Source: Candidatus Doudnabacteria bacterium RIFCSPHIGHO2_02_FULL_42_25 (GTDB lineage Bacteria; Patescibacteriota; Doudnabacteria; UBA920; O2-02-FULL-48-8). From it: 64,000 bases of DNA. The position numbers and the translations under genes were made by a program. This document shows positions 16,130 through 17,640 of this stretch, in pieces. Location of the stretch: contig MFEQ01000004.1 in the NCBI GenBank assembly GCA_001777665.1, positions 129,331-193,330 on the forward strand, read 5' to 3'. Below the pieces are notes generated by a model. The model was not told where the DNA came from. It saw only the letters and a program-made list of their open reading frames with translations, and did not search any database. Every line of letters begins with the position of its first letter. Position 1 is the first letter of the stretch.

Positions 16130-16567
16130 TTAGTGTATAAAATTCCGCAGCCATTTCGTCCAGCCTTCGCCTTCATCTTCCCAAATTGACCAAAATCGGG
16201 CAGGGGTCACAATCTTTACCCCTTTAAATTTCTCTACTTTCAATAGATGCTTATCCGACGTAACCAAAAAATCAGCTTCCGAAGCAACTGCTGATTCCAG
16301 AATTTTATTATCCTCTCTATCCTCTACAATATTTAGATGCACGGAATTCTCAATTGGCCTAACTAACTCAAAAAAATATTCTAGTTTTTTTTGAAAACCC
16401 TCATCAAGAATTTTTTTATCGGCCAGAAATTTATTTTCTCTCAAAGTTGCCTTATTCGCGTAAGCTTCTATCCGGCCTGCTATTACCAAATCTAAAATGC
16501 GGTTGGCATAATGGTAAAAATCTTCCGAGGCATCGATAAGCGCATTGGTATCTATAACAACTTTCAT
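16130..16567 (-). CDS. PIN-domain nuclease family protein
   Basis: N-terminal VVIDTNALIDA and C-terminal DFLVTSDKHLL, both PIN-type motifs. Confidence 0.6.
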   Translation of the reverse strand: MKVVIDTNALIDASEDFYHYANRILDLVIAGRIEAYANKATLRENKFLADKKILDEGFQKKLEYFFELVRPIENSVHLNIVEDREDNKILESAVASEADFLVTSDKHLLKVEKFKGVKIVTPARFWSIWEDEGEGWTKWLRNFIH

Positions 16568-17313
16568 AGAGTAACAGAATTCTTATCTTTCTTATCATCC
16601 CTATCGTCCTTATCATCCCTATCATTCTTATTGTTCTTATCATTCCTACTTAACCTATTATCCTTCAAAAATTGCTGCAACCATTTTTCTCCTTCATCAA
16701 TTTGTTTTTGTCTCTGTTTAATTTTGCTAGCTACCGTTACCTCGTCTGATTGGCTATAAGATTTTTCAACAGCACGTAGTTGTTGATCGACCAAAAAAGC
16801 AGCCTGATGAATCAAGCAAATCACACAATTCGCCGCTTTTTCCCGGTCATTTAAATAGGATAAATAAGGATAATAAGTCGGATAGGTCCGATAGGTCGGG
16901 GAGTTATCATCCTTATTGTCCCTATCATCTCTATTGTTCCTATTATCCCTATCATTCTTATCTTTCCTATCATCCTTATTATTCTTATTGTCCTTATAAT
17001 ATACAATCTTTCTCACTGCTATAGATTCGGGATGATTTTTGTCCCACTGATTCAAATTTCTCTGCCTCAAAAAGTCCTCATAATCCCCTAAAAGTTCGCC
17101 CAAGGAAAATCTTGATGCGCCAAGCAAATTAATTTTAATTTTTTCTGAGGTTTTATTTTCTGATGCCTCGACAATATTTTGTTTCCCGTCGCGAGCAGCG
17201 CCAATCATTTGGGTGGTAATTTTATGGTTGGTAATATATTTTTGACAAAATTCCACAGTGTAATCATAAACAATTGTTGCTTGCTGATAAGATTTTAAAT
17301 CTTTATAGGACAT
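16564..17313 (-). CDS. Four-helix-bundle protein (TIGR02436-like) with long low-complexity K/D/N/R extensions
   Basis: N-terminal 90 aa resemble the four-helix-bundle family (MSYKDLKSYQQA...QMIGAARDGKQNIVEASE...INLLGASRFSLGELLGDYEDF). Two K/D/N/R tracts are encoded by the 9-nt repeats. Confidence 0.5.
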   Translation of the reverse strand: MSYKDLKSYQQATIVYDYTVEFCQKYITNHKITTQMIGAARDGKQNIVEASENKTSEKIKINLLGASRFSLGELLGDYEDFLRQRNLNQWDKNHPESIAVRKIVYYKDNKNNKDDRKDKNDRDNRNNRDDRDNKDDNSPTYRTYPTYYPYLSYLNDREKAANCVICLIHQAAFLVDQQLRAVEKSYSQSDEVTVASKIKQRQKQIDEGEKWLQQFLKDNRLSRNDKNNKNDRDDKDDRDDKKDKNSVTL

Positions 17314-17640
17314 AAAAATAGGATAAATAAGGATAATAAGTAAAATAAGTCTGATAGGTAAGGGACTTTATATCTTTATTATCGGCAATAGTCCTTATTA
17401 CTCTTAAATGTCTCCCTATAGTCATTTTTTCCTATCATCCTTATCCAACCTATTATATCCTATTCCAATGAGAAATAAAAAAAGAGCGAACCGCCCTTTT
17501 TATTCCTATCATTCCATACCTATCATTCCTATTGTTCTTATTATCCCTATGGTCCCTATTATCTTTGCCGCTTCGCCTATTAGTCCTATTATTCTTACCA
17601 TCCCTATTGTCTTAATAATCCTATCGCTTCATGATACCTC
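16566..17640. repeat. About 35 copies of a degenerate 9-nt tandem repeat (YCYTATCRT; GATAAGGAT on the coding strand) in three blocks
   Basis: Blocks at about 16566-16660, 16895-17000 and 17340-17640. Blocks 1 and 2 lie inside the four-helix-bundle CDS; block 3 fills the 330-nt gap upstream of it. Confidence 0.7.

What the first reader, a model, noticed from the sequence alone, without database searches (positions are those of the whole stretch)
16130..17640. PIN-domain gene and four-helix-bundle gene inserted in the middle of the secretion locus, embedded in about 35 copies of a degenerate 9-nt tandem repeat
Two co-directional genes interrupt the secretion locus between the Pro-rich gene and the VirB3-like gene. 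They overlap by 4 nt. One is a PIN nuclease. The other is a TIGR02436-like four-helix-bundle protein of the type usually found in 23S rRNA intervening sequences. The four-helix-bundle protein carries two long K/D/N/R low-complexity tracts encoded by a 9-nt repeat (YCYTATCRT on the top strand, GATAAGGAT-like on the coding strand). The same repeat fills the 330-nt gap upstream of the gene (block 3, 17340-17640), so the repeat spans coding and non-coding DNA. The repeat generates spurious ORFs on both strands (16452-16643, 16511-16759, 17408-17698). This could be an insertion scar, a recombination or phase-variation hotspot, or a binding-site array. Its location inside an otherwise tight operon-like cluster is unusual. 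An array of five CGAAT repeats (15984-16024) then precedes the downstream VirB3/VirB4 sub-operon, suggesting the insertion split the locus into two transcription units.
Basis: seen in the sequence. Interest (0 to 1): 0.6.

Follow-up and report, generated by a model that had tools for sequence, protein, structure and literature searches.

The report
Repeat-wrapped four-helix-bundle gene cassette

Summary
A degenerate 9-nt repeat (gene strand ATARGnnnn) fills 16582-16662, 16855-17001 and 17318-17639, with lag-9 z-scores of 6-10. It spans coding and non-coding DNA.

Only the four-helix-bundle (4HB) gene and its repeats are lineage-specific. The PIN gene sits in the same slot in 12 related Doudnabacteria loci. 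The PrgI promoter and the terminator after the upstream gene are conserved in relatives without this 4HB gene, so the insertion did not split the locus.

With the repeat-encoded tracts removed, the 4HB protein matches the "four helix bundle suffix" subfamily (PF05635 + TIGR04258) at E about 1e-40. Five of six homologous loci examined carry ATARG 9-mer arrays upstream, in the same loop and downstream. Canonical PF05635 genes in 80 Doudnabacteria loci and in eight plasmid loci from five further phyla (Cyanobacteriota, Bacteroidota, Spirochaetota, Chloroflexota, Bacillota) are bracketed by short tandem arrays, mostly 7 nt and often mutually inverted (p about 1e-11).

One natural variant has a 463-bp deletion between two identical 26-nt repeats. 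No unit-number variation was seen.

Best reading: a selfish gene cassette resembling an rRNA intervening sequence (IVS), whose arrays are its own structural ends. The mechanism is inferred. I found no published description of the gene-repeat link.

The parts
17505..17639 (-). Upstream array 1: about 11-14 units of the 9-nt repeat (ATARGnnnn on the gene strand), starting right after the stop codon of the 436-aa gene
   Evidence: In-register unit map; TRF; lag-9 z=6.8 for the whole 17315-17640 block
17479..17501 (-). Terminator-like hairpin with a T-run inside the repeat-filled gap. It probably ends the upstream transcript.
   Evidence: Scan hit with a 10-pair stem. Relatives have the equivalent layout of short array followed by a hairpin after p436.
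17367..17470 (-). Degenerate units in direct orientation. Includes a possible -10 box (GGATATAAT).
   Evidence: Unit map. The promoter assignment is only my reading of the sequence.
17318..17366 (-). About five inverted units (CYTAT on the gene strand) directly 5' of the ATG. They are predicted to pair with the direct units of array 1. Contains copy 1 of an identical 26-nt repeat (17316-17341).
   Evidence: RNA fold of 17300-17645: z=-2.75, 0 of 100 shuffles as stable.
16564..17313 (-). Four-helix-bundle 'suffix' protein gene (249 aa; PF05635/TIGR04258 subfamily). This is the lineage-specific cargo.
   Evidence: Homologues at E=1e-36 to 1e-62; alignment; AF2 model, pLDDT 80; best folds 2GSC and 2RLD. 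No suffix-type 4HB in any of 80 related loci.
16903..17001 (-). In-frame direct array of 11 units. It encodes the KDNKNNKDDRKDKNDRDNRNNRDDRDNKDD tract in the loop before the last bundle helix.
   Evidence: Modelled as low-confidence coil, residues 111-147.
16855..16899 (-). In-frame inverted units encoding PTYRTYPTYYPYLSYL. Overlaps copy 2 of the 26-nt repeat (16853-16878).
   Evidence: The xxY tripeptides are conserved family-wide.
16582..16662 (-). In-frame C-terminal array of 9-10 units. It encodes the NDKNNKNDRDDKDDRDDKKDKN tail.
   Evidence: Low-confidence tail, residues 228-249.
16130..16567 (-). PIN_3 gene. It is the ancestral resident of this slot, and its start now overlaps the 4HB stop codon by 4 nt.
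   Evidence: Syntenic in L011-L016, L020, L024, L025, L035, L038 and L062.
16067..16095 (-). Promoter of the PrgI/VirB4 sub-operon (TTGCCT-17-TATAAT with an upstream TG)
   Evidence: The same TTTGTGGTATAAT-type box lies upstream of PrgI in relatives.
15984..16024 (-). Five ATTCG/CGAAT units in about 60 extra nt of the PrgI 5' UTR. They resemble the TTCG-type downstream arms of 4HB cassettes at the same slot in L017 and L019. Possibly a remnant or an ORF-less array.

Best explanation
Window 16568-17639 is a lineage-specific gene cassette: a four-helix-bundle 'suffix' protein gene (PF05635/TIGR04258) together with its own 9-nt ATARG repeat arrays. It lies in the intergenic gap between the 436-aa T4SS-locus gene and an older PIN gene, and it is co-oriented with the operon.

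Shown:
- The arrays belong to the gene family and travel with it. They are not a scar.
- They occur upstream, inside one surface loop, in the C-terminal tail or downstream.
- The in-frame copies add disordered D/K/N/R and xxY tripeptides without touching the helices.
- The cassette type sits at unrelated loci in related genomes.
- The arrays mediate deletion.

Inferred: the cassette behaves like the ORF-bearing intervening sequences (IVS) of 23S rRNA. It would be a selfish passenger transcribed with, or next to, host genes. Its repeat arms (direct units followed by inverted units) would fold into hairpins. These hairpins would insulate or process the transcript (RNase III-type) and provide homology for gain, loss and gene conversion.

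What the 4HB protein does is not known. As the most likely role I take nucleic-acid binding that benefits the cassette, by analogy with its homologue Avd.
For: - Identity: searches place the protein in the PF05635 suffix subfamily, with an intact bundle and inserts only in the loop and tail.
- Lineage specificity: no suffix-type 4HB in any of 80 related loci, whereas PIN is syntenic in 12.
- Arrays are family-typical: L091, L093, L094, L223 and L224 have ATARG 9-mer arrays upstream, mid-gene and downstream. In 1.43 Mb of sequence, chains of 4 or more in-register units occur almost only at these genes.
- Moves as a unit: the closest homologue (P0001) has the same unit ATAGGGATG. It sits between unrelated genes in the genome whose T4SS slot holds a different 4HB gene.
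- General rule: 36 4HB genes were compared with 253 control genes. Flank tandemness gave p=2e-12 and 9e-11, and arm complementarity gave p=2.5e-12.
- Enrichment: short arrays are 13-fold enriched within 250 nt of 4HB ORFs.
- Orientation and hot spot: all 36 genes are co-directional with their neighbours. 22 of 30 lie in the segment from upstream of PrgI to VirB4 (p=1e-12).
- Other phyla: the same packaging is seen in Nostoc, Planktothrix, Anabaena, Bernardetia, Treponema, Chlorohelix and Chondrinema, and partly in Monoglobus.
- Hairpin potential: z=-2.75 for the upstream region.
- Recombination: exact 463-bp deletion between the 26-nt repeats in contig L221.
- Loop expansions by tripeptide units recur independently: 8 of 109 homologues.
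- Precedent: the Coxiella IVS with an S23p ORF is called a selfish element excised by RNase III (PMC4990558). PF05635 genes are known inside cas operons and CPR rRNA insertions (PMC3936711; 10.1101/2024.02.27.582315).
Against: - No transcript, processing or mobility data exist for this organism.
- In the suffix subfamily the upstream and downstream arrays have the same orientation (complementarity score 6-7, no better than controls). A single long IVS-type stem enclosing the ORF is therefore not predicted. Only local hairpins are, and the mid-gene one is weak (z=-1.7).
- A terminator lies between array 1 and the gene, so the two pairing partners may not be on one RNA.
- No target-site duplication or precise empty site could be defined. 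The upstream boundary is uncertain because relatives also have a short array plus terminator after p436.
- Arrays are much commoner than the gene. 103 of 157 short arrays in the Doudnabacteria loci are not near a 4HB ORF. Only 2 of 120 metagenomic loci with five or more ATARG units contain any 4HB gene, and neither gene is adjacent to the array.
- The TA06 homologue lacks flank 9-mers.
Confidence: 0.6

Rival explanations
1. The arrays are multivalent binding sites for the oligomeric 4HB protein itself, on single- or double-stranded RNA or DNA. This would resemble TRAP on GAG repeats or Avd on DGR RNA. The result would be autoregulation, RNA protection, or protein-dependent spread of the arrays, analogous to RAYT transposases and their REP sequences.
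For: - The gene-array association holds across at least six phyla.
- Arrays typically have about 4-5 units (median 4.4 copies).
- Published crystal forms of PF05635 proteins and Avd are pentameric (2GSC has 5 chains; Avd from my own knowledge).
- The ATARG core is kept across suffix proteins only 45-55% identical, from different lineages.
- Closely related proteins tend to share arm types.
- ORF-less arrays of the same style are scattered in the same genomes.
Against: - Proteins about 60% identical can have unrelated arm sequences (L013|8374, L023|8864, L038|4947, L014|7977).
- Upstream and downstream arms co-vary as complements. This points to pairing rather than to a fixed recognition sequence.
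- ATARG conservation in the suffix family could instead come from the coding constraint of the loop (D-R/D-K and x-Y codons) plus gene conversion to the flanks.
- No binding data exist.
Confidence: 0.25
2. The repeats form a contingency (phase or length-variation) locus. Slippage changes the unit number and thereby switches or tunes expression of the 4HB/PIN genes or the downstream secretion genes.
For: - Tandem repeats lie in a 5' region and in frame.
- Loop length differs between lineages.
- One structural variant exists.
Against: - Units are only about 65-80% alike, which disfavours slippage.
- A 9-nt unit never shifts the reading frame.
- The 2.1-kb region is base-for-base identical in five separately recorded assemblies (three sources, some perhaps re-assemblies of the same samples). 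The exact protein is indexed in 47 blocks of the collection.
- The one variant is a recombination between 26-nt repeats, not a change in unit number.
- The secretion sub-operon has its own conserved promoter.
Confidence: 0.05
3. The 4HB protein and the PIN protein form a two-gene toxin-antitoxin-like module that was inserted as a unit.
For: - The stop and start codons overlap by 4 nt, which suggests translational coupling.
- PIN_3/TIGR00305 is annotated as a toxin component.
- Canonical 4HB genes also lie just upstream of PIN in L013 and L020.
Against: - PIN occurs alone, with its own promoter region, in most of the 12 relatives.
- None of the six other suffix-family loci has a PIN neighbour.
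- A natural variant has lost half of the 4HB gene but keeps PIN.
- 4HB genes fill many other slots in the same locus.
- No PADLOC match for the 4HB protein.
Confidence: 0.05

Closest known systems
ORF-bearing intervening sequences (IVS) of 23S rRNA genes (Leptospira, Coxiella; S23p / PF05635 ORF)
   Same: The cargo protein belongs to the same family. The IVS is a small element with complementary ends surrounding the ORF. It is tolerated inside a highly expressed transcription unit and is regarded as selfish (PMC4990558). PF05635 ORFs also occur in CPR rRNA insertions (10.1101/2024.02.27.582315).
   Different: The element here is not in an rRNA gene: no rRNA is present in the window. Its ends are tandem arrays of a 9-nt unit rather than a unique inverted repeat. 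Arrays also lie inside the ORF, in frame. In this subfamily the flanking arrays are direct rather than inverted.
Avd, the accessory protein of diversity-generating retroelements
   Same: Homologous four-helix-bundle fold (PMC10053308 relates Avd 4DWL to PF05635 2GSC). It is a small, basic helical protein that works with nucleic acid.
   Different: The precomputed Pfam lists for the called genes within 10 kb on either side show no reverse transcriptase domain and no recognised DGR target-type domain. TR/VR repeats were not searched for. The protein has the suffix domain and repeat-encoded loops.
STRR heptanucleotide repeats of cyanobacteria and TAACTGA intergenic direct repeats (PMC4679880)
   Same: Short (7-nt) tandem arrays of about 2-6 units in intergenic regions, often abutting start codons, in Cyanobacteria, Bacteroidetes and Beggiatoaceae. 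The Chondrinema 4HB gene is flanked by TCAGTTA, the reverse complement of TAACTGA. The Nostoc gene is flanked by AATTCGT x4 and TTACGAA x4.
   Different: Those repeats were described without any link to PF05635 genes: the terms S23, IVS and four helix do not occur in PMC4679880. The unit here is 9 nt and is also coding.
REP/REPIN sequences and their RAYT transposases
   Same: A single gene is flanked by copies of a short structured repeat. Other copies of that repeat, without a gene, are scattered through intergenic regions.
   Different: The 4HB protein has no transposase or nuclease motifs. The repeat sequence differs from cassette to cassette. The units are tandem arrays, not single palindromes.
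Rickettsia palindromic elements and Borg 'aaTR' tandem repeats (PMC9879509)
   Same: Repeats inserted in frame into protein-coding genes add surface or disordered segments without destroying the fold. The unit length is a multiple of three.
   Different: Here the same repeat also forms the gene's non-coding flanks. It is tied to one gene family across phyla.

Membership tests
PF05635 / TIGR02436 four-helix-bundle protein (23S rRNA IVS protein) | Significant match to the family profile | tested here: inconclusive
   The full-length protein has no Pfam hit, and TIGR02436 scores 17.2 bits against a cut-off of 24. With the repeat tracts removed, about 50%-identical homologues carry PF05635. An HMM iterated from canonical members gives E=1.9e-22. 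The PDB profile hit to 2GSC is weak, E=0.089.
PF05635 / TIGR02436 four-helix-bundle protein (23S rRNA IVS protein) | Up-down four-helix-bundle fold as in 2GSC and 2RLD | tested here: met
   AF2 model with pLDDT 80 and helices at 7-26, 30-52, 57-84 and 148-189. The top Foldseek hits are 2GSC (TM 0.67 on the target, rmsd 1.4 A, probability 1.00) and 2RLD, although all E-values exceed 0.1.
PF05635 / TIGR02436 four-helix-bundle protein (23S rRNA IVS protein) | Helix-2 motif GxxRxxxSxxxNxxE (PMC3936711) | tested here: not met
   The window has GAARDGKQNIVEAS. N-x-x-E is kept, but the R and S positions do not align with the canonical motif (alignment to 2GSC). The whole suffix subfamily shares this variant.
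TIGR04258 four-helix-bundle suffix domain | Match to the suffix-domain model above its cut-off, following a TIGR02436 region | tested here: inconclusive
   E=2.1e-7 but 30.8 bits against a cut-off of 40. The closest homologues are named 'four helix bundle suffix domain-containing protein' by NCBI and JGI. 643 clusters (50% identity) match the subfamily profile at E<=1e-30.
23S rRNA intervening sequence (the element) | Inserted in a 23S rRNA helix and excised by RNase III | tested here: not met
   No rRNA in the window (Rfam). The element lies between protein-coding genes. Excision cannot be tested here.
Diversity-generating retroelement (Avd + RT + TR/VR) | Adjacent reverse transcriptase and a template/variable repeat pair | tested here: not met
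   The precomputed Pfam lists for the called genes within 10 kb on either side show no RVT domain. The only repeats found are the 9-nt arrays. A TR/VR pair was not searched for specifically.
Type II toxin-antitoxin pair with a PIN toxin | Conserved two-gene pairing of toxin and cognate antitoxin | tested here: not met
   PIN is present without this 4HB gene in 12 relatives. The other suffix-family loci lack a PIN neighbour.
Phase-variable simple-sequence contingency locus | Near-perfect repeats with unit-number polymorphism among close strains | tested here: not met
   Units are 65-80% alike. The repeat region is identical in five assemblies. The only variant is a 463-bp recombinational deletion. 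Long reads were not available.
STRR / heptamer intergenic tandem repeats | Tandem 7-nt units in intergenic DNA | tested here: not met
   The unit here is 9 nt and partly coding. The flanks of canonical 4HB genes do meet the feature: period 7 dominates.

The most novel reading that the evidence does not exclude
PF05635 four-helix-bundle proteins (the IVS/S23p/Avd-like family) would be the protein partner of a widespread class of elements built from short tandem-repeat arrays. That class would include cyanobacterial STRR and TAACTGA-type heptamers, and the ATARG 9-mers seen here. The protein would bind or help propagate the arrays, and arrays without a gene would be non-autonomous copies. This would explain both the origin of these long-puzzling repeats and the function of a large orphan protein family.
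Probability: 0.25. Interest if true: 0.85.

Novelty: new variant of a known kind. Interest (0 to 1): 0.62.

Why it matters
The PF05635 family is large, and its function is unknown apart from Avd. It is notorious for turning up inside rRNA genes, cas operons and restriction-modification operons. Short heptamer arrays (STRR, TAACTGA) have been known for decades with no function or origin.

These genes are systematically packaged in such arrays. For 36 genes against controls, p is about 1e-11 to 1e-12. The packaging was seen in eight plasmid loci from five further phyla, weakly in Monoglobus. In one subfamily the array also runs in frame through a loop of the protein. This ties the two puzzles together and gives concrete experiments in culturable hosts such as Anabaena, Nostoc and Bacteroides.

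For annotation there are three practical points:
- The arrays create spurious ORFs and hide the protein from Pfam.
- Such insertions should not be read as operon breaks.
- The PIN gene, not the 4HB gene, is the conserved extra component of this Doudnabacteria T4SS-like locus.

Tried and rejected
- DGR/Avd context: the precomputed Pfam lists for the genes within 10 kb on either side show no reverse transcriptase.
- Toxin-antitoxin pairing: rejected by synteny.
- Phase variation: no length variants in five assemblies.
- Defence-system membership: PADLOC gave nothing for the 4HB protein and only weak PDC-M11A hits for PIN.
- Direct PDB sequence search with the core protein: no hit. The profile search gave only a weak 2GSC hit.
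- Reverse association: I scanned metagenomes for five in-register ATARG units, expecting 4HB-suffix genes nearby. None of the 120 loci had one, and only two had any 4HB gene, neither adjacent to the array. Many hits are satellite-like. Some are ORF-less hairpins in GC-rich bacterial contigs.
- DnaA-box array: considered because the unit contains TTATC. Dropped because the conserved core is only ATARG/CYTAT and the CCACA half is absent. This is my reading of the sequence and was not tested further.
- Target-site duplication or a clean empty site: not found by comparison with L011 and other relatives, because the intergenic sequences are unalignable.
- Literature: eight full-text searches found no paper linking PF05635 or four-helix-bundle genes with tandem repeats. 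Closed-access literature could not be searched.
- Period-3 score on N- and C-terminal extensions of family representatives: too insensitive, 0 of 34 above threshold, although repeat-derived tracts are visible by eye.
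Full report
**Source and layout**

The window is from a Candidatus Doudnabacteria (CPR/Patescibacteria) groundwater genome. Its 4HB and PIN proteins occur with identical sequence on NCBI GCA_001779895.1 (MFEH01000005), on a JGI Rifle contig and on ENA assemblies. The related loci are titled Doudnabacteria.

The genes run on the minus strand in this order:

| Feature | Coordinates |
|---|---|
| 644-aa SdrD_B-domain protein | 21807-23741 |
| TrbL/VirB6-like protein, 950 aa | 18955-21807 |
| 436-aa protein ("p436") | 17640-18950 |
| 326-nt gap | 17314-17639 |
| 4HB gene | 16564-17313 |
| PIN gene | 16130-16567 |
| 157-nt gap | 15973-16129 |
| PrgI (VirB3-like) | 15541-15972 |
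| TraC-like | 14848-15540 |
| VirB4-like | 13017-14846 |

**Checking the observation**

The two genes overlap by 4 nt. The 145-aa protein is a PIN_3 domain (E=3e-17).

The repeat is real and local.
- 23 of 27 plus-strand matches to CYTATYRT in 64 kb fall in 16500-17700.
- The units keep a strict 9-nt register.
- TRF finds period 9/18/27 arrays.
- Lag-9 identity has z=6.4, 10.1 and 6.8 for the three blocks. The helix-coding parts of the gene show no such signal.

The anatomy is more structured than a single array. On the gene strand, runs of direct units (ATARGnnnn) are each followed by about five inverted units (nnnnCYTAT).
- Upstream module: 17639-17367 direct, 17366-17318 inverted, with a terminator-like hairpin at 17501-17479 in the middle.
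- Mid-gene module: 17001-16903 direct, 16899-16855 inverted.
- C-terminal run: 16662-16582, direct only.

The last 26 nt of the upstream and mid-gene modules are identical (17316-17341 and 16853-16878). The five CGAAT units at 15984-16024 are also non-random, with 0.05 expected.

**What the 249-aa protein is**

Intact, the protein escapes Pfam and falls below the NCBIfam cut-offs. With the two repeat-encoded tracts removed, it matches 176 proteins at about 50% identity. Most carry PF05635, and NCBI or JGI name many of them "four helix bundle suffix domain" proteins.

The alignment shows that the first tract is an insertion in one loop. That loop is 39-41 residues long in 91 of 109 homologues and 75 residues here.

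An AlphaFold model (pLDDT 80) gives confident helices. The repeat-encoded residues 111-147 and 228-249 are low-confidence coil. The best structural matches are the PF05635 structures 2GSC and 2RLD. The subfamily is sizeable: 643 clusters at 50% identity match at E<=1e-30.

**What is inserted and what is ancestral**

I fetched 80 loci around VirB4 relatives (60-86% identity).
- PIN lies between the p436 and PrgI homologues in 12 of them, at 49-73% identity.
- The suffix-type 4HB is in none.

So PIN is an old resident of this slot in one Doudnabacteria subclade. Only the 4HB gene and its repeats are specific to the window's species.

The promoter upstream of PrgI (16095-16067, TG-extended TATAAT) recurs as TTTGTGGTATAAT in relatives. 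The pattern of p436 stop codon, short array, hairpin with T-run and promoter also recurs. The locus therefore already consisted of separate transcription units.

**The repeats belong to the gene family**

I looked up six homologous loci.
- Three CPR loci: L091, L093 and L094.
- Two others: L223, from a MAG labelled Dehalococcoidales, and L224, of unassigned origin.

All five show 9-nt arrays with the same ATARG core immediately upstream, in the same loop and immediately downstream. The four variable bases are locus-specific but shared between the flank and intragenic arrays of one locus. The sixth, a TA06 homologue (L222), keeps only the internal units.

Across 1.43 Mb of fetched sequence, chains of four or more in-register units occur almost only at these genes.

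The closest homologue is P0001 (64% identity in the alignment). It has the same unit, ATAGGGATG, as the window. It sits between unrelated genes in a genome whose T4SS slot holds a different 4HB gene. This is the best evidence that gene and arrays move together.

Loop expansions by tripeptide units have arisen repeatedly, in 8 of 109 homologues.

**A wider rule**

An HMM iterated from canonical PF05635 ORFs finds 30 such genes in the 80 Doudnabacteria loci.
- All are co-directional with their neighbours.
- 22 of 30 lie in the segment from upstream of PrgI to VirB4, which is 15% of the sequence (p=1e-12).
- The same p436|PIN gap holds canonical 4HB genes in L013 and L020 and a remnant in L025.

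Nearly every one is bracketed by short tandem arrays, mostly 7 nt with a median of 4.4 copies. The downstream array is usually the reverse complement of the upstream one.

| Measure (36 4HB genes vs 253 control genes) | p |
|---|---|
| Flank tandemness, upstream | 2e-12 |
| Flank tandemness, downstream | 9e-11 |
| Upstream/downstream complementarity | 2.5e-12 |

Short arrays are 13-fold enriched within 250 nt of 4HB ORFs.

I then fetched eight plasmid-borne 4HB loci, picked for taxonomic spread.
- Seven show flanking short-period arrays, almost all 7 nt: Nostoc, Planktothrix, Anabaena, Bernardetia, Chondrinema, Treponema and Chlorohelix. Up/down complementarity is clear in some (scores 32 and 22 in Nostoc and Planktothrix) and weak in others.
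- Monoglobus shows an array on one side only.
- An example from Nostoc is AATTCGT x4, ATG ... TAA, TTACGAA x4.
- The host operons are of defence or transport type: cas2|cas1, drmD|MmeI, hsdS|hsdR, helicase|methylase and RND subunits.

Arms differ between cassettes but stay complementary. This is the pattern expected for selection on pairing rather than on a fixed sequence. Proteins above about 75% identity share arm types.

The reverse association is weak.
- Two thirds of short arrays in the Doudnabacteria loci have no 4HB gene nearby, and these are often ORF-less inverted pairs.
- Of 120 metagenomic loci with five or more ATARG units, essentially none has a 4HB gene nearby.

**Dynamics**

The 2.1-kb region is identical in five assemblies, and the exact protein is indexed in 47 blocks of the collection. 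Unit-number variation was therefore not seen.

One 931-nt ENA contig (L221) matches the window exactly on both sides of a 463-bp deletion. The end-points of the deletion are the two 26-nt repeats. The contig also carries one SNP 250 nt from the junction, which argues against a pure assembly artefact. The deletion removes helices 1-3 of the 4HB protein and leaves PIN intact.

**Mechanism**

Shown:
- The cassette's composition and its lineage specificity.
- The family-wide link between the gene and the arrays.
- Tolerance of in-frame arrays in a loop and in the tail.
- Hairpin potential of the upstream module (z=-2.75).
- Repeat-mediated deletion.

Inferred:
- The cassette is a selfish passenger comparable to ORF-bearing rRNA intervening sequences, which are excised by RNase III (PMC4990558).
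- The arrays act as its structured ends and as recombination substrates.

Weak points:
- The suffix subfamily has same-orientation flanks, so no single enclosing stem is predicted.
- The mid-gene hairpin is marginal (z=-1.7).
- A terminator separates the predicted pairing partners.

The main rival is that the arrays are binding sites for the oligomeric 4HB protein. It is compatible with everything seen except the rapid turnover of arm sequence among proteins about 60% identical.

**Known versus new**

Already known:
- PF05635 genes inside rRNA insertions and cas operons (10.1101/2024.02.27.582315; PMC3936711).
- The homology of the family to Avd (PMC10053308).
- Intergenic heptamer repeats (PMC4679880).

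Eight full-text searches found nothing that connects the gene family with tandem repeats. The heptamer-repeat paper does not mention the family. Closed-access literature was not searchable. I therefore rate the finding as a new variant of a known kind.

Noticed in passing
window 28372-28448: An ORF-less inverted pair of tandem arrays, (TACGAAnn) x4 then (TTTCGTAn) x4, lies just upstream of the UvrD-like gene start. It has the same style as the arms of 4HB cassettes, and its unit resembles the CGAAT array at 15984-16024 and the Nostoc TTACGAA arms.
   Followed up: partly
window 1145-1168: A short 9-nt array (AATTAGGTC x2.7) fills the 34-nt gap between two co-directional genes (91-1143 and 1178-1888).
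   Followed up: no
window 16130-16567; L011-L016, L020, L024, L025, L035, L038, L062: A solitary PIN_3 gene is a conserved component between the p436 and PrgI homologues of the T4SS-like locus in one Doudnabacteria subclade. It has no obvious antitoxin partner. Its role in the secretion or DNA-uptake locus is unknown.
   Followed up: partly
L011-L090, segment from about 1.3 kb upstream of PrgI to the VirB4 start: This part of the T4SS-like locus is a hot spot for 4HB cassettes. 22 of 30 lie in 15% of the sequence, in three different intergenic slots, and all are co-directional.
   Followed up: yes
L094 6723-6772 and 8242-8324; protein P0134: 9-nt ATARG-type arrays also sit in frame inside the large neighbouring genes (a TPR protein, and a 946-aa fusion with SDR/SDK/xTY tracts). 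The arrays therefore invade coding regions other than the 4HB gene.
   Followed up: no
L102, L103, L104, L119, L216 (metagenome contigs, GC 0.55-0.65): AT-rich intergenic hairpins built from (ATAGGACnn) x5, a loop and (nnGTCCTAT) x4-5 occur in GC-rich bacterial contigs without any 4HB gene in the stretch. They may be gene-less relatives of the suffix-family arrays.
   Followed up: partly
L013 1595-2119, L017 7698-8141, L021 11868-12311: A 4HB subfamily (75-87% identical) is flanked not by heptamers but by a roughly 20-nt inverted repeat (GGTAACGAAGCCCGTATCGTGAGG / its complement).
   Followed up: no
L038 (both the p436|PIN and PIN|PrgI gaps) and L015 (PIN|PrgI gap): Another dispersed element recurs, bounded by CCCATTGCGAGGAG ... 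CGCGATGG. It looks like a small MITE unrelated to the arrays.
   Followed up: no
L228 (Chondrinema plasmid), flanks of the 4HB gene at 350-706: The flanking heptamers are TCAGTTA/TTAACTG, the reverse complement of the TAACTGA repeats described in Beggiatoaceae, Cyanobacteria and Bacteroidetes (PMC4679880).
   Followed up: partly
window 17408-17698 (+); L003 9616-9906: The repeat generates a 96-aa ORF on the opposite strand, and at least one public assembly called it as a gene. Family representatives often carry N- or C-terminal extensions that look like translated arrays.
   Followed up: partly
window 38942-39335: A tmRNA gene (Rfam 87 bits) and four tRNA genes are present in the window. No rRNA gene is present.
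   Followed up: no
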